Below, piece after piece: positions 24,757 to 57,323 of a stretch of DNA of 64,000 nt. Each line of letters opens with the position of its first letter. Position 1 is the stretch's first letter. The translations under genes and the position numbers were made by a program. Origin of the DNA: Nemertoderma westbladi (lineage: Eukaryota; Animalia; Xenacoelomorpha). A model generated the notes under the pieces. The model worked only from the letters and a program-made list of their open reading frames with translations, did not search any database and was not told where the DNA came from. The stretch spans positions 1 to 64,000 of the forward strand of contig JAUCBJ010000090.1 of the NCBI GenBank assembly GCA_032718475.1, in the 5' to 3' direction.

Positions 24757-24761
24757 ACCCC

Positions 24762-25362: not shown

Positions 25363-25392
25363 GTAACTAGATCGACTACTGCCTGACTACGA

Positions 25393-29410: not shown

Positions 29411-29459
29411 TTATTTAATTAAAAATAAAAATAAATAATAAAAATAATTAAATAATAAA

Positions 29460-31174: not shown

Positions 31175-31758
31175 TGTGAGCGTATTCAATTCCGCTACCA
31201 AGCCCCATAAAGTGAGCTTTAAGCAATATTGGGAACACGAGGTTGATATCCAATATCAACCTCGTATCACCCCAATAAAGTGGGGACAAGAGAACCCCAG
31301 AGGACATACGCACAACAGGGGTCAGGGGTTACACCCCTGAGAGAGAGAGGGAATAACAGGAGCAACGGGAAACACTCCAGGGAAGGTGAAGGGGCGACAA
31401 TTAGGTTATTAGCCAAAAGGGGGGAAGCATCGACTGGGTAGATCAATATGGCCAACCGTGCAATATATTACCGGTCCATGCATTATTTCATTCACTTGTA
31501 GTAAGTCAGCTAGTTAGGACAGTAGCGGAACTCTAGTTACCGTCTCCGCCTACAGTCACCAGTACATATCATTTACCAGTACATTATATCATACATCAAG
31601 CATCTGTGCTATTATCTTTACTATATTGTATTCCAAACCCATATACACTGATCAATCAATAACTCAGAACTACTCTTTATATCTTTCACACACGGTGGGG
31701 ACGCGTAAGCTAGAAACCAAAACCGGATAAACCGGGATCCTCCGTAGATCCCGTCACA
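31175..31758 (+). repeat. 3' LTR of element B
   Basis: TGTGAGCG...CCGTCACA, preceded by the PPT and followed by TSD ACCCC. Confidence 0.92.
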
Positions 31759-31763
31759 ACCCC

Positions 31764-33146: not shown

Positions 33147-33185
33147 AGTGTTAGTTGGTCAGTTTATGGCTCGGCAGTTTATGAC

Positions 33186-33853
33186 TGTGACGGTATCCTA
33201 AGATCCCGACCGGGTTAGATTTGTACGCGTCACCATTCTGCTGGGCAGTCATGCTAGTTCGCTTTGGCCGAACGCCCTTGGGGAAAACAATAAGGGTTTC
33301 TGTTGTTTCTCAATATCGATAGTCCAAATGATAATAGCACAATCGGTCAATCGGTAATGATACAGATGTAATAGCAGAAAATACACAGATTAATTGCTGA
33401 TGTTAGTGGCGGTGACAGTCATCAACTATGACCGGTCTGCAACTGAGTAACTGAATCAACTGACCGGTAAATCAGTAATGTAGGATAATATATGATTAAC
33501 GCACACGAATATTGATTTTACCTCTTACTTTACTTGGCCCTCTGTACCCAGTGGATGATCTCCTATCTCTAATCATGTGCTTCCCTCCCCGCTATTGGCT
33601 AATATACTAATTGTCACTTTGGCACTCCCCATGAGTGTTTCCCCCCGCTGCTAGCCTCTACTAGCTGTATTCCTTCCGAGGTGGTTTGACCTCTCACCTC
33701 TCTCTGTGGCTTTAGGGCTTGTGTCCCCCCCCCCCCACAATGTTGGTTATGAGGCGAGATTAATATTGGTAATCTCGTATCCCCAACTTATTGGTAAAAT
33801 GCCACTGATCCCATTTTCTGGTGGGTAATGAAGTGGAATTGAATCCGCTTACA
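33186..33853 (-). repeat. 5' LTR of element A
   Basis: Direct repeat of 20400-21057, followed by TSD TACCT. Confidence 0.93.
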
Positions 33854-36667: not shown

Positions 36668-38674
36668 TTCTTGAGCCGGTCTCGGGCGTTAAATCTTCGG
36701 TGCTGGAACTAGGGTCACTAAGTGGTTGAGAGATAACCTCTTGGTCAGGGCGCCGCCGCTGTTCTACAGCCATCGGTTGGTCTCGCTTAACTTGAGCCCT
36801 AGGGCCTACCAGGCTGCAAACCTCCACTGAACCGCGCACAACGCCTGCACACAATTTTTCAGCCGTGCAATATTGGACAATACTGGAGTATTGGAGAATA
36901 TATTGGAGAATATTGGAGTGTGATAGTACGTCTCATAGGCTGCCTCATCCTGGGGATATTGGTTGAGTTGATTTGGGATATTGTGCAGAGCTCTATTGTG
37001 GACCCAGAGGGGAATGTGTCACTCTATTGTTAGGCTTACCGCTAACAGCCTGTATTCACTTAACAGGTAAAACAGCTGTGGTTTACATCTATTTGGTGCT
37101 CTGTGCATGGGGTTTGATATAGGCAGTACTATACCGAGAGTGTAGAGTCCGAGGTTGTGGGTTGGTGTCGGTTTTGTTTTTGTATTTATGTAGTATTTCC
37201 AGTTATGTATTGTCGCTGATACTTTTAGCAAATGAAACTAAAGTCTGTAACTTTAAGAAATTGTATATTTATGACAAACCATATCGACCCTGAATCCCGG
37301 GACCTGGGGTGAACTCTCATACATGCACCGAACAAAACACGCACACCACATTTTAACAAAAAAATAAAAAATAAAAAAAATAAAAACATACGCGAGCGAA
37401 GTGAGCAAAATTTTTTTCATTAAGAATGTATAATGAAAAAAAAATGCGAGCGAAGCGAGTGAAATTTTTTGTGGCAAATTATTTTTCTCACTTTGAACAG
37501 TTGCATGCATGTAAACCTTTTTACACCACATCCAGACATCGGCCTGTCCACGCACTTTTATGACTTTTGATATTTTGCACAGATTACTGCGCACTTTTGT
37601 TGTCTTTCACATAAATTTTGCGCACTTTTATTTCAATTCCGCGCACATTTACCAAGCACCATTTCAAATACGCGCACAAGACGTTCGATTTTTGGACTTC
37701 ATTTGCAGCCTGGAGTGCCTATAATAGACCTATGGTGCTTCACTAACCTAGGGTCTGACACAACTACTGTAGGGATGGCCTTTCTTACAGTAGGAGGAGG
37801 GGACTTAGACCTCGGTTGTGGCCTTTCTATACTTTGATATGGGTCACAGATTGTCTGTTCCAAAAGACTATCTGACATTGTTTGTTTTAGGTCAGACATA
37901 ATTAAATCACAGTTGAATGCCTCTCACTATAATAACAGTTAAAGTAAGTCTAGGGAAAATCAGTATCAACTGTCAGTCTTGTAGTTACCAAATATTGTTA
38001 CTCAATGTAACGTGGGTAGATATCGAGTGTTATAATACTGGTATACACCTATTAATAGTATATAACAGTATTACTACAGACTAGGATCAATCACTGAATA
38101 CCGGTATATAAGTTTAGCCTAAGTTATATAAATATATAATAAGCTTACGGTAGGCACTGATTATCAATAATTAAATAATAACTGATTATCCGATTTTAGG
38201 AATTATTTCCCTTTTACTCTATTACTGATATTGAGTAATAGGTTCAACTGATAGTAAGACATAATTGATGTATAACAGGCCTACTAATTTATAAATCTGA
38301 TTGAATTAAATTTATAAATATATATACCCATAATGGGTTTTGTCAATTATTGAAATAAATGTTATTATTTCTTTATTCTTTATTAGTACGAAGTCACTAC
38401 ACAGAGGTTGGACGCTCTCAGTGGAGTGCTACTTGTTAGACACTAAATACTGATAGTTCTACTTAACTACGTTACTTATCACTACAAATTACTTACGTAT
38501 AACGGGTTGAGATTACACAATCTCTAAATAAACAATAAACAAAGTTACACGTACAATTTTTAGGGTAATTTTACAAGAATTTTACAAACCAGACTACCAA
38601 GAATTTAGAATTTCTGGTTCTTACAGACTGACAGGGAATTTACATAATTTTGAAACCAATAAAGTAGTATTCAA

Positions 38675-39650
38675 TGTTCGCGGTATTTCAACTTTTCCTA
38701 ACGCGAGTTGAATATTTTTTGGATTTATTTAAAATGATTATTCCGATATTACTACTGGGTGCGGGAACATGGGTTTTAGGCACACTCGATGGACTGGGGG
38801 CGATTTATGGGCGAATATTGGGGCGCTTACGGGGTACGGGACTCATTTCATGTATATAAGGGCCAGGGGGGGAAGACAAAGTTAAGCAGTATTCAGGTTT
38901 ACCTGATTACTATTAGGCCTAGCCAATTTCCTGCTGCCTGTAGAGGTGGATTTGGTAACTCGCTAGGTCTAAAGGACAAGGACTGCCCTTAGCGGTCCCT
39001 GGCCAACAGCAGTTATTACGAGCCTGAAAAGTACATCGGAAAGTCTGCTGCTTGTGTCAGGGATTTGCGACGGGAAACGACGACAGACCCCGTAGCCAAG
39101 CCGTACTGGTTCTCGATGATCGTTCCCTTCGGGGTTCGTAAGGGGTGGGACGGACACGCGAAAGGGTCGACCGACTAACAGAGGAAGGGTTTGACAAGAC
39201 TGCCCTTAGCGGTCTCTGGTCAACAGCAGTTATTACGAGCCTGAAAAGGACATCGGAAAGTCTGCTGCTTGTGCCAGGGATTTGCGATGGGAACCGACGA
39301 CAGACCCCTTAGCCAAGCCGTACTGGTTCTCGATGATCGTTCCCTTCGGGGTTCGTGAGGGGTGGGACGGATACGCAACGGGGTCGAAAGACAAAGGACT
39401 GGACTCTACTGGCCTACCGACTGTTCGGATCAGTTTCTCGGTTGCCGAAGCGACTATGAGCCTGAATAAGGACTCGGAAAGCCTAGGTGGTTGGGACTCC
39501 ACCGCGATGAACCGACTGACCCCTAGCCAAGCCGTACTGGTTCTGGATGATCGAACCCTTCGGGGTTCGGGAGGGGTGGGACGGACACGCGAACGGGTCC
39601 ACCGACATGACAGACTCCTAGCCAAGCCGTACTGGTTCTCGATGACCGAT
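38675..39650 (+). repeat. 5' LTR of element C; its 3' part and the PBS have been lost by deletion
   Basis: Matches 50248-50999; homology stops abruptly at GATGACCGAT (39650); TATA-like TATATAA at 38853-38859. Confidence 0.85.
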
Positions 39651-39878
39651 GACCTCGATGGAAGTATCGATCACACCCATTGACATAATGCAAGTTGAGC
39701 CAGGAATCTGGCACGTCGAGGTTGAAGTACAAGGAACGAATGTCGGACGATTCAGGATTACCGTTCGAGTAGTCCAAGCTGAGTACGAGAGCTACGAAGA
39801 ACTATTCTACGACATCGCATATCTAGCTATCAACGAGTCGCTAGAATGACAACGAACAACGTCTCCGACACCGATTAG

Positions 39879-42800
39879 ATGGACACCCACACAGACTCAG
39901 AAGCCGACGAGGTACCGAATATCAAGAACATGACCCGTCGACTAGGTGCTCTCAAAGGCGGAGTCACTCGAGCGTATCAGCGTATAGAGAAACAAGTCAA
40001 GAGAGTCGAAACTCCCCTCAACGAGATACAAACTCAGCTTCAGAATATCCGAAGTATCTTACAACGATATGAGAGGATGATACAGGCGTATCAAGAACTC
40101 ATTCCCTCCACCGATCAGGTAAACTACCCCAGGTTAGAAGAACATGTTGTACATCTAGATGAGTTCCGCAAACAACACCGGAGGACCCTCAGCCTTGTGA
40201 GAGGCTACGAAGAACAGTACTACAAGAGAGCTGAAAGAACAGACGCAGAATCGGTGCGAACCTCCAGCACCAGGACAGCAATACATCGAAAGAGAACGGG
40301 GTCCTCTAGGAACCAGCACTCCAGCGCTAGGAGCGCGGTGTCCGGTTCAGCACATAGCTCTCAAGGGGGTCAGCCACTCCGAGACCAGCTACGAGAACAG
40401 AAGGCATTAGCCCTCAAAGCTCGGATGGAAAATGAGTATGTTCAACTGCGTACCGAGCAAGATGTATTAGCAGCCGAAATGCAAAAACGAGAGGCCGAAC
40501 AAGAGGCCGAACGGCAGGTCGAACAACGCGAACAGGAGGCTGAACAGCATAGACGAGACGCCAAACAACGTAAACAGGAGGCTGAAAGGCATAGACGAGA
40601 GGCCGAACGGCAGGCCGAACAACGTGAACGAGAGGCCAAACAACAGGCCGAACAACGTGAACATGAAGCTGAACAACGTAGACGAGAGGCCAAACAAGAG
40701 ATCGTACAACGTAAATGGGAGGCAGAAATGCGTAAACAACACGCCGAGGCCCAAGCGATTCTCATCCACAAAAAGAATGCGGATATTGCGAAACTCGCGG
40801 AATACGAAGCCGCGCTTATAGAACGAGATATTCAAATATACGAGGACTGGGAAAGGGGTATAGACCAGAACTATGAACCAATACCGATACCAGAATTAGA
40901 GAAGTCATTAACGACACCGGCGGTGAAACCTCCGAAACCCGAGTTCCCGCCTACCATACAGTCTACATTATCGGCACAAGCACCGGTATTCCATCCCCCA
41001 CCGGTTACGCTTAAGAATGAGGAACCTTATACCCCCCCCGAGCGTTCCCAAGTACGAGCCTGAAAAGGACTTGGAATGGGTCGCCACTCCCTGCTCCAAC
41101 AACCCGTTTACATCCACACCACAAATCCGTAGCCGAGTCATCATTAAAACACCACCTATCATCGATCCATCGTGTATGGGAGAGAGTGCCAATAACTATA
41201 ACCCTCCTAGTCATTCCGGTTCAGACGACATTGGCATTATCCGGGCATTAGAGAACCGACTGGCCATGCCCAAGATGGAGATCCGCACCTTCGAAGGAGA
41301 TCCCGTCGATTACCTCAGATTCATGAAACGGTTTTTCGCCCAGATTGGGTCAACGGACATAGCTGATGCACAAAAAATAGTATATTTATCCCAATACCTG
41401 GGTGACAAACCACGCCGGATTATCGCATGCTTTGAGGGAGGAGCTCATGAGGCATACTATGACGCATGGAAAACTCTAGATAAAAGATACGGAAATATCG
41501 GGACTATAATTAATAAAACTCTCGAGAAACTGATACAGGACGCGGGATCTCTAGGGGACCCACAGAATATCCAGGAATTCTCAGATTCCATGAAGGATGC
41601 CTACTATACTCTAAAACCATTAAATAAGGAGGAACAAGTAAACAACATTCTAAACCTCCGACAGATCGCCCGAAAGTTCCCCGGATGGCTGCAAAGTAAG
41701 TGGGCCTATAAATGCGTAGATCTCCGGCGTAGACACCCAGATCGAGATCCCAGATTCAAGATCGAGATCGAGATTCCTGGATGATATCTCCGAAGCCATG
41801 AATGACTCGATGTTCTCGAAACAAAGTCTCGCCAAGTTAGACGGATTAGAGAGCAACTCCAGGAGCAAGACGCCCACTCAGAAACCGAGATTCCGTCTCC
41901 TTCCGGTGAGTACAATGGCCATCACCATGGCTGAGGATTCCGACGACGAAGACTACGAGGAACCGACATCAGCCGAGGAATGGGCGTGTTATCTTGCGAA
42001 TTGGGCACCCGAAAGGGAAGGCATCACAAACTCCCTTCTCTGTCTCTTCTGTGGAGAGAAACATAAAGTGGAATTCTGCAGGAAGTTCCAGTTTGCCGAA
42101 CTCGTCCCACGCTTCGAGGCGATCATGAAACACCGAGGATGCTTCCGGTGTCTTGGAACAGGTCACTATGTTCGGGATTGCGACCAAAGATCGTGCTGTA
42201 CGGTTTGTAATGACCTATGTCATCACACACTCCTCCACATCCCCGCGAACTTTGACTTCACCACCCTCCCATTTCGGATTGAAGCCAAACGAAGAGGAGA
42301 AACGAACCACGTTTCTAAAGGAACCCGGACGACCCAACGGAGAGAAACCAACCCGTTTAAAACCTCCACCGATGCATCACAAGTGACAAATATCTCAGCC
42401 ACGATCAACCTTATAAATCGCCGTTACATGGTCTTCACCAAAGTAATCCCAGTTAGAATTCAAGGGGTCGGGAAATCATTGACAACGCTCGCATTCCTTG
42501 ATAACGGGTCGGACGGAACCATCATCGACCGAGATTTCCTCGAGCAACTCGGCCTAGATTATGAACCTTGCAAACGGCCCATACAAACGATCACCGACCA
42601 CAGAGAAGTAGAATCCGGGGAGGTGCAGCTCCAGATGGAAGGAGTAATGAAGGGCTACGAGACGGTTAAGCTGACAATCAAGAACGCCTTGGTACACACC
42701 GATCTCCGAGTGCGGTTCCGACAATCAGCCGAATACGCCCCTCTCATACAGTTAGACCGGGAAGATGTAGACCTAAGGTGCCTGCCGTTGGACGTAAACC

Positions 42801-45800
42801 GCATCACCCTATTGATCGGACTTGACACACCGGAATTACACATACCCTCCGGAGACGTCGCCCGATCTATAAAGCAGGATGACGGCTTTTACGCTGAACG
42901 AACAATAATGGGATGGACACTCTGCGGCATCAAGGAAGAGACTACAGACACCTATACATACCTTCCTAAATGTCAGATTAAAGAGAATGCAACCTCCGTG
43001 GGTTATTGTTCAGCTACAGACATTGACGAGGATTTGTTTCTTGAGACCGAGAAAACCCAGCAAGAGATGACTAAATACTTTAATCTAGAGACTCAAGAGT
43101 TCGCTGAAAAGGACGAAAACCCGTCCGAGGAGGATCAATATTGTATTGACGTCCTTGACCAGGCCACGTTCAAAGACGGACACTGGTGTTCACCCATGCT
43201 ATGGAAGGACCCAAATAAACCAATGGCGAATAACGCCAACATGGCCCTTAGGCGACATGAAGGGATCATACGCCGGCTGAATGACCAACCCGAGATAAAG
43301 GAGAAATATAATAATGTAATCAAAGGATATCTTGAAGATGGATTAGCAGAAATGGTACCCCGGAATGAACTGCAAGGGGGTAAAAGAACATATTATCTCC
43401 CAACCCACTATGTGGTAGAAGCCCGGAAGGGTGGTAAAATCCGAGTAGTCAATGATGCCGCCGCTATGTATCAAGGCAAATCCCTGAACAGCCAGCTTTA
43501 CACGGGGCCCAACATATACAGTACACTCATTGGCATGTTGATCAGGTTCAGGGAAAACCAGATAGCATTCACCTGCGACATTAAAGCGATGTTTCACCAG
43601 GTCCGTACGCTACCAAGAGACTCAGACTGTCTGCGTATATTATGGACGGATAAAAGGAGATTAGTCAACTTACATTGAAGGATGTAGACGTAATGCGCAT
43701 GATCGTCAGGATCTTCGGCGCTATGGACTCGCCGGTAGCATGTAGTGACATGTTGAAGAAAACGGCAACTATGTGCGAAAACGAGTTCCCTCCAACCGTC
43801 ATAGAAACCATCCGATGATGCTTCTACGTGGACGACGGATGCGCTGGCGCAGATAATGTTGACGAGGCATATCAGCTAGCAATGGGGATGGTGGAATGTC
43901 TAAGGAAAGGAAGTTTTCCTCTCGTGAAGTTCAGATCCCACGACAAAAAACTTATGGAAAGGTTTCTGGAAGAAATCCGACTGGACAATAATAAAATGTA
44001 TTCCGAGGATGTGGAACACCGTGTACTTGGCATTGAATCAGATGAATTCATTTTCAAATATAACCCCCTACCCAAGCCTATGACGAAAAGGGGATGTTTG
44101 TCAATAAAAAGCGCAATATTCGACCCACTAAACTTCATATCTCCGGTAACCTTGGCCGGAATGAATCTAATTAAGGAAATGTGGATAGAAGGACTGGGAT
44201 GGGATGAAGAACACCCCCCACACATCAGTGTCAAATGGAGAAAGTGGACGGAACAGCTCGAACACCTACATCTTATGCGGATCCCTCGACCGTTCTTCCT
44301 CGATAAACTACCCACCGATATCTTCCAGCTCCATACTTTCTCGGATGCTTCGAATACCAGAATCGGCGTAGTCACTTTCTTAAGAAGACTAAGTAACGAT
44401 GGAAACGGCGATACGAGCTTCTTATTTTCTAAAGCTAAGACGGTATCCGGGGAATTCGTAGCAACGATTCCGAGACTTGAGCTACAGGCCGCGGTTTGGG
44501 CAGTGAGACAGAACCGCAGGGTCATGCAGAACATACGAATCCCCATCGAATCTCAACACTTCTGGGTCGATTCGAGTATCGTTCTCTACTATCTCCACTC
44601 TCCATCACGGCGTCACACCACGTTTGTAGCAAACTGAGCCACGGAGATAAAACAGTGGTGTACCGGCCGAGAACAGTGGCACCATGTGAACGGGAAAGAA
44701 AATCCAGCGGACTTATCAAGCCGAGGCGCCACCCCAAAACAACTCAGCAAAAGTAAACTCTGGCTTACAGGCCCGGAATTCCTACAGCAGCCACAATTAA
44801 CATGGAGTACCCGATTCGATCCCAAACTCGATAGTGGAAAATACTCCGAGGACGACAAGGAGATCCGTAAAGTCCATAGAAGCAACGCAGTGGAAATCTA
44901 TAGTTGTCTGACCGAGCCTGCAAAGGACTCGGGCAGGCACTATAACGTTGCGACGATCACTCAACCAGCGGCGTCTTTACACCTGTTGATCGAGCAAACT
45001 TCATCAATGAGACGGCTCATCCACCACGTTATAACCCTTCGCAACTTCTTACGGTGGAAAGACAACAAACCGATAGTTAAACGGAGTATACAAGAACTCA
45101 TTATCGCGGAGAAGTGTATTGTTGGATATGTCCAGAGAGAAAGTTTCCCCGATGAGTGGGAACAACTTAGTGCGGGCAAGACCCTGAAACCGGACAGCCC
45201 AGTCTACCAATTGAGACCAATGATGGGAGAGGACGGACTGATTCGACAGAATACCCGGATGGCAAACGCCCCGGTTGAATACGAGGTTAAATACCCAGCG
45301 CTTCTGCCCGGAACGTCGACACTAGCCAAGCTATTAATTCAACAGTGTCACGAGGAAAACCACCATGCGGGACAGAACTGGATTATAGCTAATATAAGAC
45401 AAAGATATTGGATCACCCACATCCAGCCACTGATCCGGAAAGTGTTAAAACGTTGCTTTCCCTGCAGAAGATATCTAGCGCCACCACTCACACAAAAGAT
45501 GGCCGACTTACCAGCCACACGTCTACAGTCCGATTCCCCACCGTTCTATGTAACCGGAATAGACTGTTTCGGACCATTTACGGTCATCGAGCGACGATCC
45601 AACATCAAATGCTGGGGAGCCATATTTACCTGCCTTAGGTCTAGGGCAATCTACCTAGACATCGTGGTGAACCTTACGCAACACACATTCATCAACGCCC
45701 TGCGTCGGTTCGTGGCGAACAATGGGACATGCCGTCATATGTACTCCGATAATGGTACAAACTTTGTGGGAGGAGAAAGAGAACTTAGAGAGGCGATCGA

Positions 45801-46523
45801 GGGATGGTTTACCGAGGACACCGCATCCCAAGTCTGGAGGGACCACCATATACAGTGGCACTTCCAAACACCCTTAGCACCCCATACGAGCGGGGTATGG
45901 GAGAAGCTAATCGACTTAGTAAAACGGTCCATGCGCGTCGCATTAGGAGACACCCAGGTAACCCATTCCGGGTAATCCGCACAACGTTCTGCGAGATCAC
46001 GGCTACCCTGAACAACCGGCCCATTGTCCCTATCCGCGACGACCCCATGGATTTGGAGCCCCTCACTCCTAACCACCTACTGGGAAGACCCAAAACCCAT
46101 ATTCTCCCAGAGACGATGTTTCCGGATCCCAACGATATCGCGAGACATACAAATTGGAAGAAGGCCCAAGCATTGGCAGCGCATTGGTGGAGAATCTGGG
46201 CCCAGGAGTACCTCATAACCCTCCGGACCAGGAGGAAGTGGAACAACACCTACAGGAATGTCGCCGTTGGCGACATGGTGCTGGTGAAAGAAGATCTCAA
46301 AGACCGCGTCCACTGGCCTGTGGCGCGAGTCGCGGCAATACACCCGAGCAAAGACGGATTTGCGAGGACTGTGACGATACGAACGGCAAAGGGCCACTGC
46401 CAACGCCCTATCCAGAGGCTGTGCCTTCTTGAAGGCAATGACAGCGGTGACTCTATGAGAGGTGATAAGTTCCCTACTCAGGATCCTGCTGCAGACATTG
46501 GTGACAATTATAAACCCGTTTAA
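39879..46523 (+). pseudogene. gag-pol: Element C gag-pol polyprotein with several frameshifts and stops
   Basis: TFEGDPVDYLRF (DUF1759-like); three knuckles CLFC..H, CFRC..GH and CTVC..HH; protease FLDNGSDG; RT YYLPTH, KIRVVND, DIKAMFHQV, YVDD; RNase H FSDAS, IPRLELQAA, WVDS; integrase HHCC, TGIDCFGPF, SDNGTNFVG; C-terminal RVHWPVARV. Confidence 0.95.
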
Positions 46524-46794
46524 ACCCTTCTCATCCTGTTGACAAACTCCTGATGAAAATGGACCCCCCTTAAACCAACTGTAACCACGCAATGGTATTT
46601 GTGTTTCCTTGTGTGCTATGTGGAGTCCAGCGTCACCCTGCAGATGTTTCGACTGACGCAGGGTCGTTTATGTATTGTTTACCCTGATTTTGGTCATCGG
46701 GACCAACGATATTGGATTATTGGAAATGGTAAAGATTTGAAGTGGAATTCATTGTATCCATTGTAGTATGTTATGTTGTCAGTTGCGTGCGCAG

Positions 46795-47185
46795 TTCGGG
46801 GCGTAGGCGGTGTAACTAGTCCAGCTGTAGATCCCGGATTGCCGCGCAACACCCCCTCTATCCCGTTATTCTGGTGGATCCATGGTGCATCCACATGACT
46901 TCGACGATAGAGGGTTTTATGTTTCTCAGTCGCGTTATTCTGGTTGGACCGTTGCGTGGATTTTGGGGCATAGGCGGTGTAACTAGTCCAGCTGTAGATC
47001 CCAGAATGTTGCGTAACCCTATCCCACATGACTTCGTCGATTGAGCTTTATGTTGTTGGGAGTGTTATTCTGGTGGGTCCCTGGTGCATTCCACGTGACT
47101 TCACTTCCAGCGTCTTCATTGTCCGTTACGTGTGCAGTTTGGGGCGTAGGCGGTGTAACTAGCCCAGCTGTAGATCCCAGATTGT
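46795..47185 (+). repeat. Triplicated ~35-bp motif in the non-coding spacer between pol and ORF3
   Basis: GGC(G/A)TAGGCGGTGTAACTAG(T/C)CCAGCTGTAGATCCC at ~46801, 46967 and 47143. Confidence 0.8.
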
Positions 47186-47758
47186 CGCGTAACACCACTT
47201 CCACAACGAAAATTTCCCAAAGAAGATGATTGAATGTAGTTGGAAAAGATGAAAAGAAACAGACGACATTACTATAAACTGAATGTGACGCGTATGATGA
47301 TGAAAATGAAATGATGCGCACCCTGGTGCTGCGCTTATAACAAATGATGATAGCCTGGGGGCTATAACCCCAATGATGATATGGAAATAAATGAAATGTG
47401 TAATAAATGATGAAATGGTGGAACTAAATGATGAAATGTGTTGAAATAAATGAAATGTACAATGAATAATAATGAGAAATGAAAAAAGAATGTATAAAAA
47501 AAAATGTATAAAATATAAAAGAAAAGAATTGGAAAAAAGAAGAGGACATAAAAAGTCAAAACTGGTTGGATATTAATGTATAGCTATAGTAACTGTAAAT
47601 GCTGAATGTATTAGCAATAAGATGGTAGATGCCTATTTAGCAATGTTATTTAATAAACTGAATTAAAAATAAACTGAATTATTCTGCAATCACTATAGTA
47701 TCAGACTTTCTGGATTTATAATTAACTGATATAAATTTGCAACGGACATAATTTAAAT

Positions 47759-49579
47759 ATGGACCCAAATCGCCAAATTATCGGCGAATTACGTCATACG
47801 ATAGATCTACTGGAATATCCACAACCTGGATCCCTTAACTTTGATACAAATTGGAGCACCCTGATAAATGAGAATGTGCGAGTCGTCAAATTCTCCGGGC
47901 GAGAGGGACAGGATTCCCGGAATCTACAAGCCCTCCGGTTAGCCGATGCTAGTACGAGCCTGAAAAGAACTCGGAACGCAAAGGCTACCGGAGGGGATGC
48001 ATTGTCGTACTGGGATACGTTCCGGCAAAGCGTCTACAAATCCCGATGTTTGATATACGACAACGAGGGAAACGCGACGCCCACCTCGAAAGCGATGACG
48101 TTGGCGCGATGTCAAAGTTTCATTGATGACAAGAGTATGTACCTCGCCCACTGGGGAAACCTAGCGGAGTGTACGGCGACGCTACGAGAGGAACGTATAT
48201 TGGTTATCCAGAATCGCGACGACTACCAGGAGAAGTACGGGACGAAAGAATACGGTCGATCCTTGGTCGTCGTCCTCGGAACCCTGGATGGTTTGGTATT
48301 GGTGTGTCGAATATTTCCGACACCCAGACAGGAGGTACGGACAGCCGGAGCTATCTGGCTACTACCTCCGGAGATCCGAAAGATCCTCTTCGACTTCGAC
48401 GTCATTAAAATCGGGTCGGATATAAAGGCGGACGTCCGAAACGACTACGCGAATGCTCCTTTCGGAAGAGACCGTAGAGATGATCTCAACGCCATTAGCC
48501 ATTGCGTCGACACCCAGACTCTATTAGCCTGGCTACGATCCGCCGAATTCATGCGAGGATTCCGGGAGGTGAGACAGACGAAATCCGGTATCGGCTACCT
48601 TGCAGTGCTAAACGGCGGCGTCGATTTTAAACCTCAGAAATTCCAGGACTATAATAAGATATATGGTGGATACACGGGATTGGAAATAAAGAGCGAGCGA
48701 GAGGGTCGATGGAAGGACGTTGACAGGAAGTGGACGATACATCAAAGGTGGGAAAATCCGGACCGACGGAACTACATCTACGTCATTATGGAGTCCTACA
48801 CCGTCGCTAAGTTCATATGTAAAACTCTCGATAACCTCATTACGGTGGTTCCTCGTTCCTTTATCGACTACGACTGGAATGAAGTTATCAGCCACGCCTA
48901 CAAAGCGGTCGAGAATACTACACCGGGAGAGACAAAAACGCTCACCGTTATCGACTCCTGGGATGAGAACGGACCTTTCGACATCCCTACGATTACCGAT
49001 CTCCTCGGTGCGGAGGAGCCTCTGATTTCCTTGGAAGGGGAAGAACTATGGCTACAGGAAGGCGTTCTACTGTCCACCCCAAATCGACCACTCGAGCCAG
49101 AAGCCGCGTACGAACTGGCCGCCAAACGGGTTGCCTCGGCCGAACCTGCGACGGAAGCAGGTGCTTCCACCCCACTCGGCTCCGGTAGCCCTGCGAGGGA
49201 GTTAGTTACTACCTCCACGTTGAGCGACTTCGGCGACATATGCCAGAGGTTATCCCCATATCCTTTCCCGGGTGGCGAAGACTGGTCTTCGGAGATTCCG
49301 AGTACCAGCACTCAACGGACCCGCTCAGCGATACTGGTCGAGAAGGGTCCCAGCGCTGCGCCGACTCCCAAAGATCTCCTCGGAATCCCTCCGTCGAAAA
49401 CCCCGGCACCTCTTCACCGACCAGCGGTGACAACTACCCCCTCCGTTCCACAGGATACTATGCGACTAACCCGATGGTACGCCGAGCAAACCGAATGGAT
49501 CCACCGCCAGAAACGGTCGTCCGTGATGAGGCCGGTGGGACATAAAGAAGGTTATCGGAGCGAGAACCTACTACGCTAA
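47759..49579 (+). CDS. Element C ORF3, 606 aa: DEDDy/WRN-exonuclease-like domain (probably inactive) followed by a Pro/Ser/Thr-rich linker
   Basis: LPPEIRKILFDFDVIKIGSDIKADV, CVDTQTL, SGIGYLA and RWENPDRRNYIYVIMESY resemble, by eye, the Exo II and Exo III region of WRN/EXD/Mut-7 nucleases; no signal peptide or TM segment. Confidence 0.6.
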   Translation: MDPNRQIIGELRHTIDLLEYPQPGSLNFDTNWSTLINENVRVVKFSGREGQDSRNLQALRLADASTSLKRTRNAKATGGDALSYWDTFRQSVYKSRCLIYDNEGNATPTSKAMTLARCQSFIDDKSMYLAHWGNLAECTATLREERILVIQNRDDYQEKYGTKEYGRSLVVVLGTLDGLVLVCRIFPTPRQEVRTAGAIWLLPPEIRKILFDFDVIKIGSDIKADVRNDYANAPFGRDRRDDLNAISHCVDTQTLLAWLRSAEFMRGFREVRQTKSGIGYLAVLNGGVDFKPQKFQDYNKIYGGYTGLEIKSEREGRWKDVDRKWTIHQRWENPDRRNYIYVIMESYTVAKFICKTLDNLITVVPRSFIDYDWNEVISHAYKAVENTTPGETKTLTVIDSWDENGPFDIPTITDLLGAEEPLISLEGEELWLQEGVLLSTPNRPLEPEAAYELAAKRVASAEPATEAGASTPLGSGSPARELVTTSTLSDFGDICQRLSPYPFPGGEDWSSEIPSTSTQRTRSAILVEKGPSAAPTPKDLLGIPPSKTPAPLHRPAVTTTPSVPQDTMRLTRWYAEQTEWIHRQKRSSVMRPVGHKEGYRSENLLR

Positions 49580-50262
49580 AGCCCAGCCTTTTGCGGGCTA
49601 CCAGCCACAGCGAATATTCAAAAGAGCGACCGACGACTCGAGTATTACGTCGGCGTCCCGATCCCGATCTTCTTCGGTCGGGAGATGCAGTTAGAGATAT
49701 GCGCAGACTGCGGTTCGGAGCAGTGCCCACGCGGCAGACGAAATCGAGTAACCGACTCGTGCCTAAAAGCTCCTCGGGATTCTGTATTGTCCATACTGCG
49801 CGACATCGGGACACGACGTCTCAGTTCCGTTGACGGAACTGAGGTTTCCGTGGACATTCCGCTAGCCCCCGCTGCAATATAAAATGTCCCACAAAGGACG
49901 TTACCACTATGGGAAATCTGGTTATGTTCGAAACTTACGCAAATAGCCACATAAAGACCAAGGTACGGAGAAACGCTCGGAATATTGTGCAGGAAATGGC
50001 GTGTGGTTATTTTTCCTTCCCAGAACGCCTCCATACTACAGCGTCGCTACCTTTCCATTACGTGGATCTGTTGCTAAGCGCCGGATTGTTCGGCCCATTC
50101 GAGATCCTTCGACGCTTATATTCGTATAAAGAAGAGTTTGGTGACGGAAAGTGGTTCCTAGAGGCACGCAACACCGAGTTGGAAAGACGAACCGATATGA
50201 TCCCGTTGCCATCGAAAGGAAGAGCCGCCAGGAGACAAGCCGAAACGTTCAACTTTTCCTAA
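49580..50262 (+). pseudogene. Frameshifted Cys/His-rich C-terminal continuation of ORF3
   Basis: CADCGSEQC...C and, in another frame, YCPYCATSGHDVS (from ~49785), then ORF 49909-50262 running into the 3' LTR. Confidence 0.5.
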
Positions 50263-51519
50263 CGCGAGTTGAATATTTTTTGGATTTATTTAAAATGATT
50301 ATTCCGATATTACTACTGGGTGCGGGAACATGGGTTTTGGGCACACTCGATGGACTGGGGGCGATTTATGGGCGAATATTGGGGTGACTTATGGGGTACG
50401 GGACTCATGTCATGTATATAAGGGCCAGGGGGGGAAGACAAAGTTAAGCAGTATTCAGGTTTACCTGATTACTATTAGGCCTAGCCAACTTCCTGCTGCC
50501 TGTAGAGGTGGATTTGGTAACTCGCTAGGTCTAAAGGACAAGGACTGCCCTTAGCGGTCCCTGGCCAACAGCAGTTATTACGAGCCTGAAAAGGACATCG
50601 GAAAGTCTGCTGCTTGTGTCAGGGATTTGCGACGGGAAACGATGACAGACCCCGTAGCCAAGCCGTACTGGTTCTCGATGATCGTTCCCTTCAGGGTTCG
50701 TGAGGGGTGGGACGGACACACGAAAGGGTCGACCGACTAACAGAGGAAGGGTTTGATGAGGACTGCCCTTAGCGGTCTCTGGTCAACTGAAATTATTACG
50801 AGCCTGAAAAGGACATCGGAAAGTCTGCTGCTTGTGCCAGGGATTTGCGACAGGAACCGACGACAGACCCCTTAGCCAAGCCGTACTGGTTCTCGATGAT
50901 CGAACCCTTCGGGGTTCGGGAGGGGTGGGACGGACACGCGAACGGGTCCACCGACATGACAGACTCCTAGCCAAGCCGTACTGGTTCTCGATGACCGATC
51001 CCTTCGGGGTTCGAGAGGGGTGGTACGGATACGCGACAGAGTCTACCGACTGGACCGACCCTTAGCCAAGCCGTACTGGTTCTCGATGATCGATCCCTTC
51101 GGGGTTCGGGAGGGGTGGTACGGACACGCAACAGGGTCGACCGACACCGACACTACGGCACCAAGACTAGGACCGAGGGAAAATCTGGGGAACATTAGTT
51201 AGGCTAAAATCTGAGCGAACAGTGGGTAATTAAATAATATACTGTAGGGATTTATATTGTCATGTATTATTATTGTGAATATTTGGTGTATATTGATTTG
51301 GGGAAGCCCAACTTATTCTCAATCAAGGTTCAACTGTAGGGAAGTTACATTAAAGAGTATATCCAACCAATGCAGCTTTTTCTCAACCGCAATCTTGCAT
51401 TTAAGAACGTATTCCTTCTCCACAATCAATATCCGGTGACTGGCCAGGATTCCATGGTCTGTAAAGTTCCGCCTCCAGCATCGGCGTTTTCCCCCATGGT
51501 GTCGGGAATAACGGCAACA
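50248..51519 (+). repeat. 3' LTR of element C (first ~12 bp and PPT missing), containing arrays of structured repeats
   Basis: Matches 38687 onward; ATTAAA at 51349-51354; ends ...CAACA followed by TSD TTCAA. Confidence 0.88.
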
Positions 51520-53374
51520 TTCAATACTTTGTGTTGTCCAGATAAGGAAATGCCACTGCCTGACTGCCTGACGGCTTATAGTCTACACTATAAACAAACG
51601 TACCCGGAGTGTCCTATACATAGAGATTAATTATCGAAGCCTAAAGCTAACGGACCTATTAACCACGTTACAACACAAATATACTGCATACAAACTAAAT
51701 TAACTTTCAGTAAAGCGCTGTACTCTAAACCCTAGATTAGATACTAGCACTTATACAACATATAACTTAAAGTTAAATATATGTGAACAGCTAAAAGAAC
51801 CACAGCATCTGCTGGAGTGAGCAGAGTATTTAGGCTTAATTATCCGATGCTAAAGAAATCACCAGTCTGTCCTATGCCAAGCAGTCCTGAAGTAGTACCC
51901 GGGTTAATTTAACTATTACGGTATGCATAACAAGCAGAATTACTGTAAGGAATAAACTTGGGGACATGAATGTTGCAAATTACTTGCATAAACTCTGAAT
52001 AATAAATATTACGCTACCCGTACAGACTATTCAAATAAAACACAGACCAAAATGCTGACAGACCACCGCCAAGCCAAAAATAAACCACAGTATATGCAGT
52101 CTCCAAAATGGTTAGTTAGTAAGCGATCTAGACTACATAGTACGACTTATTCTTTCGTGGGGGATTTACCTTACAACTTTGGAAGCCTCCACTGCCTAAC
52201 TAGCACTTTATTGGAAAAATAACCTACACACACTGTAATCCACATCAGACCTAACAACAATCAGACAATAATTCAGCCTATAAGTTACTTTTACAATCCG
52301 AGCAGGTTTACACACCTTCTGCTCAATACTACACTTACCGGTAAATAAAGCCATCAGAAATAAGTAAACCATACAAGGAGTAAGGGTGATCAATCCCTGA
52401 TCCTCTAACAGCCTACAATATCCCGGTACAATATTTCACAATCGAAGTAATACTGCTATAAGGTACCGGTTTGGCACTACTAAGCCTACAGTTTACCGTC
52501 AGACCCGTACGTTAGGGTTTATTGCCTACTGAGCAATAAATGAAAAAATCTAATAATGTTCTACCAGAACATTAGCAAAATCTATTAATGTTTGCGCTTT
52601 TAGACCTTTAACAGTTTAACCTGCTAATTTAAGTGTCTTATGAATCGACTATTGCCCGTACTAATTGACATCATCTGAAACCAGTCTAGCGCAGCGTATG
52701 ACCCACGGGTGTGGGAGACTGGATTCGGTTCTAGAGAAGTATTGCAGTAGGCTACTTTGTATTATTCGATTGATCACTACTATATAATTTCCGACAACTA
52801 TATTTACTTTCGGGGAAATATTAACAGTTCCTTTGGGACGTGGCGCTTTAAGTATCAAGCTGAGTTATGACTAACACTAATTACAACTAGTGGCAATAAG
52901 ATAACGCAAATGGCACATTCTTTAGGAATGCTTTATTAACCTTCACACTAACTTTATACACTAATATTCACACTAATGCACACTGATTTGCCGACTGTCA
53001 CTGATTTTAATCATATATAAGGAGGATTGCAACTCACATACATTGGGATTATGAAATAGCATTTAATTCACACAAACCACTATAAATTGAGCCACAATTG
53101 CTACTGATACACCCTTCTGCTTACCTCAGTAATTAAGAAAGTCAAGGGGGATTTTACGATTATTCATCAGTATTCTCCAAATATAACATCCATTAATATA
53201 AACACCAATTAACAATAGTATAAAACAATGTATTAGAAAGCAGTGCGGTGAAATGAGTATGAATAGTTTAGTATGAGCATGAAATGAGTCGTTAATAGAT
53301 TCGTGTTCTTATGACTCTAGGTCACTGATGTTAGGGCAAAGTCTGAAATTAAGAATGTCAGTATGAATTCTGAA

Positions 53375-53460: not shown

Positions 53461-53671
53461 AAATATATGTCAACAAAGCAGATTCCTCACACAAAGGAAC
53501 AGCTGGTAGATTTTGTCATTCCAACTCTGAGTTTTTTTACAGACACGTAGTTGTACAATTATATGCCTTTTAGAGTATTTAGCGCATTGTGCAAATGACT
53601 TATTTTGTCCGCAAAAGCTTTTACAAAGCGCTTGAACTATATGTACTAATGATAAACGTTCTATACGAGTG

Positions 53672-54918
53672 GTTATGGGTAACACCTACGCGTAGTTATG
53701 GGTAGCCCCTACGCGTAGTTATGGGTAACATCTACGCGTAGTTATGGGTAGCCCCTACGCGTAGTTATGGGTAACACCTACGCGTAGTTATGGGTAGCCC
53801 CTACGCGTAGTTATGGGTAACATCTACGCGTAGTTATGGGTAGCACCTATGCGTAGTTATGGGTAGCCCCTACGCGTAGTTATGGGTAGCACCTACGCGT
53901 ATTTATGGGTAGCACCTACGCGTGGTTATGGGTAGCACCTACGCGCAGTTATGGGTAGCCCCTACGCGTAGTTATGGGTAACACCTACGCGTAGTTATGG
54001 GTAGCACTTACGCGTAGTTATGGGTAGCACCAACGCGTGGTTATGGGTAGCACCTACGCGTAGTTATGGGTAGCCCTTACGCGTAGTTATGGGTAACACC
54101 TACGCGTAGTTATGGGTAGCACCTTCGCGTAGTTATGGGTAGCACCAACGCGTGGTTATGGGTAGCACCTACGCGTAGTTATGGGTAACACCTACGCGTA
54201 GTTATGGGTAGCACCTACGCGTAGTTATGGGTAGCACCTACGCGTAGTTATGGGTAACACCTACGCGTAGTTATGGGTAGCACCTACGCGTAGTTATGGG
54301 TAGCCCCTACGCGTAGTTATGGGTAGCACCTACGCGTATTTATGGGTAGCACCTACGCGTGGTTATGGGTAGCACATACGCGTAGTTATGGGTAGCCCCT
54401 ACGCGTAGTTATGGGTAACACCTACGCGTAGTTATGGGTAGCACCTACGCGTAGTTATGGGTAGCACCAACGCGTGGTTATGGGTAGCACCTACGCGTAG
54501 TTATGGGAAGCCCTTACGCGTAGTTATGGGTAACACCTACGCGTAGTTATGGGTAGCACCTTCGCGTAGTTATGGGTAGCACCAACGCGTGGTTATGGGT
54601 AGCACCTACTAGTAGTTATGGGTAGCCCCTACGCGTAGTTATGGGTAACACCTACGCGTAGTTATGGGTAGCACCAACCCGAGGCTATGGGTAGCCCCTA
54701 CGCGTAGTTATGGGTAATACCTACGCGTAGTTATGGGTAACACCTACGCGTAGTTATGGGTAGCTCCTACGCGTAGTTATGGGTAGCCGCTACGCGTAGC
54801 TATGGGTAACACCTACGCGTAGTTGTGGGTAGCACCTATGTACCCGAGGATATGGGTAGCACCTACGCGTAGTTATGGGTAGCAACTACGCGTATTATGG
54901 GTAGCACCTACGCGTAGT
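53672..54918 (+). repeat. 23-bp minisatellite, about 54 units
   Basis: GTTATGGGTA(G/A)C(A/C)CCTACGCGTA tandem array; the 10-bp palindrome CTACGCGTAG recurs once per unit. Confidence 0.97.
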
Positions 54919-56152
54919 TTGCATACATAGGACCTGTTCAGCATAGTTACAGTATAAACGTCAGCGTTTGCGAAATAAATATTTTCTAACAAATCAGGAC
55001 GAACGTAACCAAGTTTGCAATGGAGACACGTACTGCGGTAGTTAATATTTTTCGCCATAAAACCAACTTAAAAGCGTTCACATGGCCCACTAAAATAATC
55101 TCAAATCGTACGACTTTTGCCCTAGATACGATGCGACTATGGGCAAGTCGAACTACACTATATTTATAAATGTATTTATTATTAGAGTTAGTTCACAAAT
55201 ATGTCCGCTCCTGTCCCAGACGGTTGATCAGAGTAACCGAAGCTCTAGCACTGTACTGGATATTATAAGAATAACAAAGGCCTACCAGCATTTGCAACAG
55301 TAGGTGGTAAATATTAAAATTTTTATGAATTTTAAATTGAAATAATTTTTATAAATTTTAAATTTATTAAAAAAAATTTGAATTATGGACGAATATTAAT
55401 TTGTTATAAACTGTCGATAAGATTATATTTACAAAATCTCGAAAATGTTAATTTTAATTTCATAATTGGGTTATTTGGTTTTTAGTTCATATTTAGTTCC
55501 ATTAATTTAGTTTATAGTTTTGGTTAGAATAATGCGCCACTGTAATATGTTCCTTTCCATTAATCAATATTTTAAAGACTATTTGGGATACTACAGTATG
55601 TTCGTCTCCATTTACATTCCTCATTCTACAATGCTCTTAGATTTTAATCTTATTATTGTACTTTGAACTTATAACTACAATACTCACTATTTACACGCCT
55701 TTGTTGAAGTAAATAGCAATTGATATTAATTTTGCAGCGATAACGTGGCATTCCATTGGAGTATCAGGAGATTATTGTTTACGAATACCTATAACTACTT
55801 TACACAATGTCCTGGAATCCATATTTTTCTGCAAATTACAATACAGTATAATTGATAGCTAAAAATATCAAAAATAATTTTCATGAAATTTTTTGCTAAA
55901 TAGTTTGTTATTAAAAAGCATCACCCTGTGTGATATAACATCCGTTATAAATTATTTAAAAAGCGTTTTACTATTTTATTATCGCCACCTTCAAAGCAGA
56001 ACCCCCTAAGTCGATTTTTGTATTTCTGAGATAATCGATAAAAACTGTTTATTTTTTAGAGAGATGCCTCAGTTTACTTGTTATTGTGTTTTTGACAAAT
56101 AAATATATATAGAATTCATATAACAAAACATTATATTTAATTTAGAATCACC

Positions 56153-56346: not shown

Positions 56347-56591
56347 TTATATCCAAGGCGTATCGTACGTCCTTAATAATTTAGTGCGTAGTGCGAACGT
56401 AATACATGTGCGCATTTGTTATTCGCTAATACGTGCTATCTAACATGTTAACTACTGTATATAGCATTTTACATTTAGTAGGCCTACTATAATATACATA
56501 CAGTATACACAGTAAATTATATTACGGTAGTAATTTATCTGCCTCATTTCAATAATAATGTATCTTATCACTTAAAAGCAAAACAGATATT

Positions 56592-57323
56592 ATGTTGAAT
56601 TTACCAGGAAACTTCTGCGTCGGATTATATACCTCCATTGTTATAATAATATTATTATCTTCTACCACTACAGCGCAATCTAAATGCAGTGTAGATTATG
56701 ATTGCTTCGGAGATGATGTATGTTGGTTCGGCCAATGTGTTGAATGTTCAACCAATTATGATTGTTTCGATGCAAATAAACCGTATTGTTATTTACAAGA
56801 ATGTATAGAATGTAGATTCAATTCTCAATGTTCCCTTGCAAGTAAACCTTATTGTTATTTACAAGAATGTGTTAAATGCAAAGATAATTATTGTGTGTCA
56901 TTCTTCGGCTATTCAATAGGTGTGGCAGTTGTAATTATCATCTTGCCAATATTGTGCTGCTGCTTCATAAGTATTTTCATATATCAAAAATCTCGCCAGC
57001 GCTCCCAGCTGACTCGGATACCTGTCGGGATGGTGACGTCATCAGCTGCTGCTACTTCCGGCTACATGGGGCCTGCGGCATATCCCGGAAGTCAACCACC
57101 CCCATACCCCGCCGGAAGTCAACCGCCCCCATACCCCACCGGAAGTCAACCAGCCCCATACCCCACCGGAAGTCAACCTGGTATAAACCGCATGGCTCCA
57201 TACCCAACTCAACCGGCACCCTACCCCACTCAACCTGCACCATACCCCATTGCAAGTCAACAACCCGCACCATATCCCACCGGAAGTCAACCTGGTCCAA
57301 ACCCACCTCCTTATCCTACATAA
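56592..57323 (+). CDS. Intronless type I membrane protein: signal peptide, ~3 Cys-rich repeats, TM with CCC, Pro/Tyr-rich tail with PPPY motifs (Shisa-like/WBP1-like architecture)
   Basis: Hydrophobic N-terminus; repeats of form C...DC....C..xC.EC (two share KPYCYLQEC); TM SIGVAVVIIILPILCCCFISIFIY; GSQPPPYP repeats. Confidence 0.8.
   Translation: MLNLPGNFCVGLYTSIVIIILLSSTTTAQSKCSVDYDCFGDDVCWFGQCVECSTNYDCFDANKPYCYLQECIECRFNSQCSLASKPYCYLQECVKCKDNYCVSFFGYSIGVAVVIIILPILCCCFISIFIYQKSRQRSQLTRIPVGMVTSSAAATSGYMGPAAYPGSQPPPYPAGSQPPPYPTGSQPAPYPTGSQPGINRMAPYPTQPAPYPTQPAPYPIASQQPAPYPTGSQPGPNPPPYPT

What the first reader, a model, noticed from the sequence alone, without database searches (positions are those of the whole stretch)
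47759..50262. BEL/Pao element carries a probably dead DEDDy (WRN/EXD/Mut-7-like) exonuclease ORF plus zinc knuckles in the env position
Seen: a 606-aa open frame after integrase, with no signal peptide or TM segment, continuing through frameshifts into CxxC and CPYC..GH motifs. Residues ~145-350 resemble the WRN-exo fold by eye (LP..I+.IL.D..V.K+G..I..D, VD..TL, W...Y...ESY). The Exo I DxE position appears replaced (ILVIQNRD) and the Exo III D appears as E. Established: inactive or active DEDDy domains act in small-RNA and RNA-transport pathways (EXD1, Mut-7/Nibbler, Egalitarian). Inference: a captured nuclease fold repurposed as an RNA-binding accessory protein, either recognising the element's own hairpins or acting as a decoy against piRNA silencing. 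Together with the hairpins this could be an element-encoded protein/RNA-signal system. I cannot establish novelty without a search.
Basis: partly seen in the sequence, partly recalled or inferred. Interest (0 to 1): 0.8.

Follow-up and report, generated by a model that had tools for sequence, protein, structure and literature searches.

The report
BEL retrotransposon carries dead exonuclease gene
A multi-copy BEL/Pao jumping gene carries, where retroviruses carry their envelope gene, a selectively conserved gene predicted to encode a likely disabled RNA-trimming enzyme joined to zinc knuckles, which likely binds the element's own structured RNA rather than cutting it.

Summary
A 12.8-kb BEL/Pao element (38675-51519, 5-bp target duplication) carries a third gene after integrase. 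It has a 606-codon open frame, then an in-frame stop and two frameshifts through three broken zinc knuckles. Two unnamed relatives (P0123, P0124) match its N-terminal domain. P0123 has the whole layout unbroken: exonuclease-like domain, linker, CCHC knuckles and a shared C-terminal motif. The DEDDy fold call is indirect (ESM Atlas features; profile-profile match, probability 58%, E 1e-4); both AlphaFold models failed. The relatives keep Exo I DxE, while this element has QNR, and one divergent copy keeps QNR through silent codon changes. ORF3 is family-wide, not a one-off insertion, and its exonuclease domain is under purifying selection (11 of 16 listed differences silent, about 29% expected). 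One RNA hairpin motif recurs seven times, in both long repeats, in gag and in ORF3. DEDDy ORF3s are published for gypsy-like rotifer elements, with intact active sites. I found no BEL/Pao case, no disabled case and no knuckle fusion in print. Likely an RNA-binding pseudonuclease; function untested.

The parts
38670..38674 (.). 5-bp target-site duplication TTCAA, left copy
   Evidence: empty-site joints 38671>51525 in contigs of all three runs
38675..39650 (+). 5' terminus (TGTT...) and 5' long repeat with hairpin units; 96.6% (675/699) identical to the 3' repeat over the collinear part
39879..46523 (+). BEL/Pao gag-pol in pieces (DUF1759, zf-CCHC, aspartic protease, Peptidase_A17, Integrase_H2C2, DUF5641); broken by frameshifts and stops in this copy
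41053..41075 (+). hairpin motif A inside gag coding sequence
   Evidence: (z -3.05)
46524..47758 (+). spacer between pol and ORF3: three copies of a 56-78 bp repeat, then an AT-rich stretch
47759..49579 (+). ORF3 main frame, 606 aa (P0001), ending in an in-frame stop
47931..47998 (+). hairpin motif A in a long stem inside ORF3 codons about 58-80
   Evidence: (z -5.80, 0 of 200 shuffles)
48176..48853 (+). DEDDy-like exonuclease domain (residues about 140-365): Exo I position Q151-N-R153 (48209-48217), Exo II D225 (48431), Exo III Y341/E345 (48779/48791)
48854..49576 (+). P/S/T/E-rich linker, no sign of purifying selection (4 of 16 listed differences silent)
49580..49882 (+). continuation in the same frame after the stop; first knuckle remnant CADC at 49700
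49788..49814 (+). second knuckle remnant CPYCATSGH, second frame
49843..50262 (+). third knuckle remnant (GFRGH) and C-terminal motif GYFSFP..LPFHYVDLL shared with P0123; the stop codon lies inside the start of the 3' repeat
   Evidence: score 60, 0 of 300 shuffles
50248..51146 (+). 3' long repeat with two copies of hairpin motif A and four of kink-turn-like motif B
51147..51519 (+). unique 3' end of the element, ending ...AACA
51520..51524 (.). target-site duplication, right copy

Best explanation
This BEL/Pao family carries a third gene, present in many copies and kept by selection, that is predicted to encode a DEDDy exonuclease fold, likely catalytically dead, joined through a linker to CCHC zinc knuckles, and the protein likely works as an RNA-binding accessory factor on the element's own structured transcript. 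Shown: position, reading frames, the catalytic-position residues, presence in other copies, silent-site excess in the exonuclease domain, and seven copies of one hairpin motif across the repeats, gag and ORF3. Inferred from homology (about 0.9): the fold. Inferred from the motifs (about 0.8): loss of activity, because the first Exo I Asp is missing in either register. Inferred and untested (about 0.5-0.6): the mechanism. The old active-site groove would hold an RNA 3' end or stem and the knuckles would grip single-stranded RNA nearby, as in TbRND. The protein would then cap or chaperone the element's RNA (protection from 3' trimming, RNP assembly or transport), as EXD1, Exuperantia and Egalitarian do without using catalysis. 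The copy in the window is dead: pol and the knuckle region are broken.
For: Relatives: P0123 and P0124. P0123 has the complete layout, with knuckles that match retroviral nucleocapsid and Air2 structures (best E 1.1e-4) and a C-terminal motif shared with window 50005-50073. Fold: ESM Atlas features gave 24 of 30 hits in the PF01612/WRN-like set at 0.93 (family on 38% of that cluster's members). hhalign of the three-sequence alignment against 30 bacterial PF01612 domains gave probability 58%, E 9.8e-5, score 36 against at most 20.7 in 60 column shuffles, with Exo I, Exo II and DTQ in register. Loss of Exo I: DVE and DTE in the relatives, QNR here. One divergent contig keeps V-I-Q-N-R-D with four silent codon differences (table 5c, read by eye; one record). 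Family-wide: 1280, 1613 and 797 contigs at 85-100% identity laid on 48150-49950, 30 of 30 bins in each of three runs. Selection: 11 of 16 listed differences silent in the domain against 29% expected (p 0.0013), 4 of 16 in the linker. Hairpin A: 7 exact 12-mer matches, all inside the element and on the + strand; allowing one mismatch gives 9 matches against 0.52 expected. Precedent for catalysis-independent RNA binding by DEDDy folds: bioRxiv 10.1101/2025.08.03.668247 (passages).
Against: No direct structural evidence: both AlphaFold models had pLDDT 32-33. The window protein alone gives no Pfam hit, no PDB sequence hit and hhalign probability 0.5%, so the fold call is transitive through P0123, which itself scores under the Pfam cut-off (E 0.049-0.2). 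The three top Atlas rows were unnamed clusters. Nothing links the protein to the hairpins except residence in one element. The domain is only slightly basic (36 K+R, 31 D+E). D154 and D155 lie next to the Exo I position and might substitute. The selection count rests on 36 of the 40 rows shown out of 103 (4 rows beyond the frame changes were left out), and it compares one copy with the majority rather than giving a true dN/dS.
Confidence: 0.45

Rival explanations
1. The dead nuclease is a decoy or antagonist of host small-RNA silencing: it competes with EXD1, Mut-7/Nibbler or their partners for piRNA intermediates or binding sites.
For: EXD1 is an inactive DEDD protein of the piRNA pathway (passages). 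An EXD1-like cluster was the second Atlas row for P0123, at 0.77, a lead only. The family is multi-copy.
Against: No sequence link to EXD1 or Mut-7 specifically was found, and no phylogeny was possible with the eukaryotic sequences at hand. The knuckles and the element-wide hairpin point more simply to cis RNA binding.
Confidence: 0.2
2. The domain is still a 3'-5' exonuclease with a rearranged site (acids at 154/155, D225, E345) and trims the 3' end of the element's RNA or cDNA, as proposed for the rotifer DEDDy ORF3s.
For: Exo II D and Exo III YxxxE are kept. The closest relatives keep DxE. The exonuclease-plus-CCHC layout is that of the active enzyme TbRND (PMC7797062, passages; a Euglenozoa PF01612+zf-CCHC cluster was the top Atlas row for P0123 at 0.86).
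Against: The first Exo I Asp is Q or N in either register. It ligates both metals in DEDD enzymes (recalled knowledge). The change is kept in a divergent copy.
Confidence: 0.15
3. ORF3 is a passenger: a captured or nested gene that hitchhikes with the element and no longer has a function.
For: The linker evolves neutrally. This copy is broken in the knuckles. The genomic context of P0123 and P0124 is unknown.
Against: Silent-site excess in the exonuclease domain. The element's own hairpin motif lies inside ORF3. ORF3 ends inside the 3' repeat. No well-supported joint that skips ORF3 was among the joints listed (56 more not shown).
Confidence: 0.1
4. The domain is not a DEDDy fold, and the motif matches are convergent.
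For: No direct Pfam, PDB or fold hit for the window protein.
Against: The two relatives have DxE, D and YxxxD/E at the expected places, and the profile match stands well above the shuffles.
Confidence: 0.07

Closest known systems
DEDDy ORF3 of Juno and Vesta LTR retrotransposons and of Terminons in bdelloid rotifers (Rodriguez et al. 2017, PMC5408684; part 2 of 5 of the text and passages read)
   Same: A non-env ORF3 downstream of pol that encodes a DEDDy-type exonuclease, lacks TM and coiled-coil segments, is family-specific and has no tested function.
   Different: There the catalytic residues are reported intact (DEED) and the domain is called RNase D-like; the hosts are rotifer lineages with the GPY/F integrase tail, not BEL/Pao (their gypsy-type placement is recalled). 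Here the host is BEL/Pao, the Exo II motif is of the K.G..I..D type (WRN/EXD-like, recalled label), Exo I is lost and three CCHC-type knuckles follow.
TbRND of Trypanosoma brucei (PMC7797062; passages)
   Same: A 3'-5' exonuclease domain followed by C-terminal CCHC zinc fingers that bind the RNA upstream of the 3' end.
   Different: TbRND is a cellular, active enzyme with a 28-residue linker and four fingers. Here there is a linker of about 280 residues, three knuckles and a lost Exo I. Homology beyond the shared domain types was not shown.
EXD1, Exuperantia and Egalitarian (passages of bioRxiv 10.1101/2025.08.03.668247)
   Same: Exonuclease folds used for RNA binding without catalysis. Egl binds stem-loop signals, including that of the I factor retrotransposon.
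   Different: They are host genes. Egl keeps all five catalytic residues. The passages read give them other partner domains (SAM, EHD) rather than CCHC knuckles. Orthology was not tested.
Dada DNA transposons of Laccaria and Ectocarpus (PMC3706591; passages)
   Same: A transposon-borne DEDDy domain.
   Different: It is inserted within a DDE transposase, with all four acids intact.
BEL/Pao elements with env (PMC3118150; passages)
   Same: Same gag-pol order, with a third-gene slot.
   Different: That survey mentions only env as an extra gene and has no occurrence of 'exonuclease' in its main text. At 12.8 kb this element exceeds the usual 4.2-10 kb given there.

Membership tests
BEL/Pao LTR retrotransposon | gag with DUF1759, Pao peptidase A17/RNase H region, integrase with DUF5641, in gypsy-like order | tested here: met
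   the integrase region's best hits are BEL-type polyproteins at 31-42% identity
BEL/Pao LTR retrotransposon | TG...CA termini and 5-bp target-site duplication | tested here: met
   TGTT...AACA with TTCAA on both sides; empty-site joints
BEL/Pao LTR retrotransposon | two complete LTRs that share both termini, with PBS and PPT next to them | tested here: inconclusive
   The long repeats share about 900 bp, but the 5' terminus and the 370-bp 3' end each occur once. The purine tract lies inside both repeats. No PBS was assigned.
DEDDy 3'-5' exonuclease fold (PF01612) | Pfam gathering score | tested here: not met
   No hit for the window protein; P0123 E 0.049-0.2, below the cut-off
DEDDy 3'-5' exonuclease fold (PF01612) | profile-level homology with Exo I, II and DTQ motifs in register | tested here: met
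   hhalign probability 58%, E 9.8e-5, 125 columns, above 60 of 60 shuffles; the alignment ends before Exo III; Atlas features
DEDDy 3'-5' exonuclease fold (PF01612) | structural superposition on a solved DEDDy domain | tested here: inconclusive
   Models at pLDDT 32-33; fold searches uninformative
Active DEDDy nuclease | Exo I D-x-E | tested here: not met
   Q151-N-R153 against DVE and DTE in the relatives; kept in a divergent copy
Active DEDDy nuclease | Exo II D and Exo III Y-x3-D | tested here: met
   D225; Y341-x3-E345, with E as in P0123
Active DEDDy nuclease | measured 3'-5' exonuclease activity | not testable with these tools
   needs an assay
EXD1 / Mut-7 / WRN / Egl subfamily | phylogenetic placement with one cellular subfamily | not tested
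   No eukaryotic DEDDy sequences were retrievable for a tree; the reference profile was bacterial
Rotifer Juno/Vesta DEDDy ORF3 pool | clusters with the rotifer retroelement DEDDy ORFs | not tested
   Those sequences were not obtained
Retroelement env | signal peptide, TM anchor, fusion-protein homology | tested here: not met
   hydropathy scan and no Pfam hit; no dedicated predictor was run

The most novel reading that the evidence does not exclude
This BEL/Pao lineage encodes its own protein and RNA-signal pair: a pseudonuclease-plus-knuckle protein that recognises a repeated hairpin (bulged-G/loop-E-like, GAAA-capped) placed near the start of both gag and ORF3 and arrayed with kink-turn-like hairpins in the terminal repeats. 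That would be a Rev/RRE- or Egalitarian-like system in a retrotransposon, possibly tied to its non-standard ends, in which neither long repeat is a complete LTR.
Probability: 0.2. Interest if true: 0.8.

Novelty: new variant of a known kind. Interest (0 to 1): 0.5.

Why it matters
It extends non-env DEDDy cargo from rotifer elements to BEL/Pao. It also gives a natural pair, an active-looking relative (P0123) and a version that lost Exo I but is still under selection, which makes the open question from the rotifer paper testable: do retrotransposons need the cutting or only the RNA binding? The element also supplies candidate RNA targets, so binding can be assayed directly.

Tried and rejected
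No whole genome is held, so there was no copy-by-copy analysis. The search for homologous proteins found nothing for ORF3 residues 30-400 (0 of 3875 candidates) and only P0123 with the alignment (1 of 7989). The search for related loci found no confirmed relatives: viral contigs 0 of 86, metagenomes 0 of 421 and 0 of 279. The hairpin pattern had 0 matches in viral contigs. Rfam gave 0 matches at E<=1 over 37000-52500. PDB sequence searches with ORF3 and alignments A1 and A2 gave 0 hits; P0124 gave one irrelevant hit; plasmids gave one weak knuckle hit. Two AlphaFold models were unusable. Foldseek on the second gave 0 matches at E<=0.001, and VIA-align gave a best Z of 3.0 (the EXD2 exonuclease at rank 24, Z 2.6, is not counted as evidence). 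No RNA holder was listed, which says nothing about expression. P0122 was rejected as a fibronectin-repeat artefact. ORF3 residues 1-146 show no match to the relatives' N-termini (score 26). The first two knuckle frames are not significant alone against P0123 (102 and 169 of 300 shuffles score as high). Motif B (z -1.81), the third 5' copy of motif A (z -1.94) and the post-pol repeat (z -0.14) do not fold clearly better than shuffles. No covariation count was run on the hairpins. Whether the stop at 49577-49579 is shared by other copies could not be told: it was not among the 40 of 103 rows shown. Literature searches with no BEL/Pao exonuclease report. The slash in 'BEL/Pao' cannot be searched and 'bel pao' scored 0 occurrences in the papers listed, so these searches are weak for BEL-specific papers. 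Repbase and subscription journals are not covered, and no supplements were read.

Full report
1. The element. The window holds a BEL/Pao retrotransposon from 38675 (TGTT) to 51519 (AACA), flanked by a 5-bp duplication, TTCAA. Contigs of three public DNA runs of one organism join 38671 to 51525, the empty site. The pol pieces carry Peptidase_A17, Integrase_H2C2 and DUF5641, and gag carries DUF1759 and a zinc knuckle. The integrase region's best relatives are BEL-type polyproteins, the named ones from marine invertebrates and fish, at 31-42% identity. Gag-pol is broken into six frames in this copy. The two long repeats are 96.6% identical over 699 collinear bases, so this is an aged, dead copy.

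2. The observation. ORF3 starts at 47759 and is open for 606 codons. After an in-frame stop the same frame carries CADC (49700), a second frame carries CPYCATSGH (49788), and a third carries GFRGH (49843) and runs to a stop at 50260-50262 inside the start of the 3' repeat. There is no N-terminal hydrophobic stretch. The one hydrophobic window (2.08, residues 168-186) falls on the predicted beta-hairpin of the fold.

3. Relatives and architecture. A search of 1.84 billion representatives gave three hits. One is a spurious fibronectin-repeat protein. P0123 (648 aa) and P0124 (472 aa) are unnamed singletons from ENA. P0123 shows the unbroken layout: exonuclease-like domain, low-complexity linker, three Cys/His knuckles (the last two match HIV nucleocapsid and Air2) and a C-terminal motif. 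The window's last piece aligns to that end from GFRGH to LPFHYVDLL (score 60, 0 of 300 shuffles); the first two knuckle frames are not significant alone. So the pieces most likely belong to one gene, about 830 codons long. Loose ends of contigs at 49764 and 49819-49843 show that other copies differ from the window at these breaks, which fits lesions private to this copy. The genomic context of P0123 and P0124 could not be fetched, so their association with BEL elements is untested.

4. The fold. Direct evidence is lacking: no Pfam or PDB sequence hit and two unusable models. Indirect evidence agrees from three sides. ESM Atlas features put 24 of 30 hits in a WRN-like/PF01612 set at 0.93, though the top three rows were unnamed clusters. 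P0123 has a sub-threshold PF01612 hit and DEDDy clusters as its nearest named Atlas rows (0.86 and lower, leads only). A profile of 30 bacterial PF01612 domains matched the three-sequence alignment with probability 58%, E 9.8e-5 over 125 columns, score 36 against at most 20.7 in 60 shuffles and 13.8 reversed. P0123 alone gave 70.5%, P0124 2.0% and the window protein 0.5%. I put the fold at about 0.9. The K.G..I..D form of Exo II is the WRN/EXD/Mut-7 type rather than the RNase D type; that label is recalled, not tested.

5. The active site. The relatives have Exo I as SIDVE and SFDTE, Exo II D, and Exo III as YxxxE and YxxxD. The window has VIQNR, D225 and Y341-x3-E345. The Exo III E is therefore not a defect. 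The Exo I change is: Q-N-R in the best register, N-R-D in the alternative, and the first Asp is absent either way. It is not decay of this copy alone. One divergent contig (run X2, depth 26) reads V-I-Q-N-R-D with four silent codon differences and then lacks 11 codons in frame (table 5c; one record, read by eye).

6. Family-wide and selected. In three runs (two samples, two studies) 1280, 1613 and 797 contigs spread over 85-100% identity covered 30 of 30 bins of 48150-49950, and a contig bridges the spacer into the ORF3 start. Depth is not a copy number. Of 103 sites where most copies differ from the window, 40 were shown, and I classed the 36 that lie in the main frame. Silent: 11 of 16 in the exonuclease domain (29% expected; p 0.0013), 4 of 16 in the linker, 3 of 4 after the stop; domain against linker Fisher p 0.03. 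The domain is maintained as protein although Exo I is gone.

7. RNA motifs. A 12-mer occurs exactly seven times, all on the + strand inside the element: three in the 5' repeat, one in gag, one in ORF3 and two in the 3' repeat; with one mismatch allowed there are 9 matches against 0.52 expected. It is the core of a hairpin with a GAAA-type loop, flanked by an AGUA/GAA pair that looks like a bulged-G (loop E) motif (label recalled). The outer stems differ in sequence between copies. The ORF3 copy folds at z -5.8, a 3' repeat copy at -4.1, the gag copy at -3.05 and one 5' copy at only -1.9. A second unit, seven full copies in the repeats, fits the kink-turn consensus by eye (label recalled; z -1.8). 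Rfam has no match. No evidence ties these to the ORF3 protein.

8. Mechanism. My best reading (0.45) is an RNA-binding accessory protein. The dead exonuclease groove and the knuckles would together hold the element's structured RNA for protection, packaging or transport. TbRND shows how an exonuclease domain and CCHC fingers share one RNA (PMC7797062, passages). EXD1, Exuperantia and Egalitarian show DEDD folds working without catalysis (bioRxiv 10.1101/2025.08.03.668247, passages). Rivals: a decoy against small-RNA silencing (0.2), a still-active trimmer with a rearranged site (0.15), a passenger (0.1), or a wrong fold (0.07).

9. Prior art and novelty. DEDDy ORF3s in the env slot were described for Juno and Vesta elements of bdelloid rotifers, with intact catalytic residues and untested function (PMC5408684, part 2 of 5 and passages). 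Reviews repeat this (PMC6431247 and PMC5718144, passages), and Dada DNA transposons carry an intact DEDDy domain (PMC3706591, passages). A BEL/Pao survey mentions only env as an extra gene (PMC3118150, passages; its supplements were not read). My searches found no BEL/Pao case, no disabled case and no knuckle fusion, but they are weak for BEL-specific wording and do not cover Repbase. Earlier unchecked notes of this scan report Rrp6-like and dead DEDDh ORF3s in gypsy or other LTR elements of other genomes and none that holds all of 'BEL Pao exonuclease'. These notes suggest the theme recurs, which lowers surprise; I did not test them. Verdict: a real, conserved accessory gene and a new variant of a known kind; interest 0.5.

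Noticed in passing
window 38675-39650 and 50248-51519: The two long repeats are not complete LTRs: the 5' terminus (first 12 bp) is absent from the 3' copy, and the last 370 bp, with the AACA end, are absent from the 5' copy. A PPT-like purine tract lies inside both (38865, 50427) and no PBS was found by eye. No well-supported joint among those listed suggests that other copies differ, so the arrangement may be family-wide and hard to square with standard LTR replication.
   Followed up: partly
window 39110, 39327, 39541, 50672, 50890, 50985, 51080: Seven copies of a UUCG-capped hairpin with a 3-nt bulge and tandem GA/AG pairs, matching the kink-turn consensus by eye; possible L7Ae-family (15.5K/Snu13) sites. 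Untested.
   Followed up: partly
window 46776-47196: Three copies of a 56-78 bp repeat between pol and ORF3; no folding excess (z -0.14).
   Followed up: partly
window 42038-42181: The gag knuckles match the knuckles of P0123 weakly (tblastn E 0.18); the ORF3 knuckles might derive from a gag.
   Followed up: no
window 14494 onward and 53663-54919: Two satellite arrays with periods of 37 bp and 23 bp.
   Followed up: no
window 21000-33200 and 10385-12891: Large inverted duplications of decayed gag-like and RTE-like sequence (labels by eye).
   Followed up: no
window 56559-57323: A 254-aa frame that reads like signal peptide, Cys-rich repeats, a TM segment and a proline/tyrosine-rich tail; possibly a host gene or retrocopy.
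   Followed up: no
window 61245-62857: Remnants of a second BEL/Pao pol (by eye).
   Followed up: no
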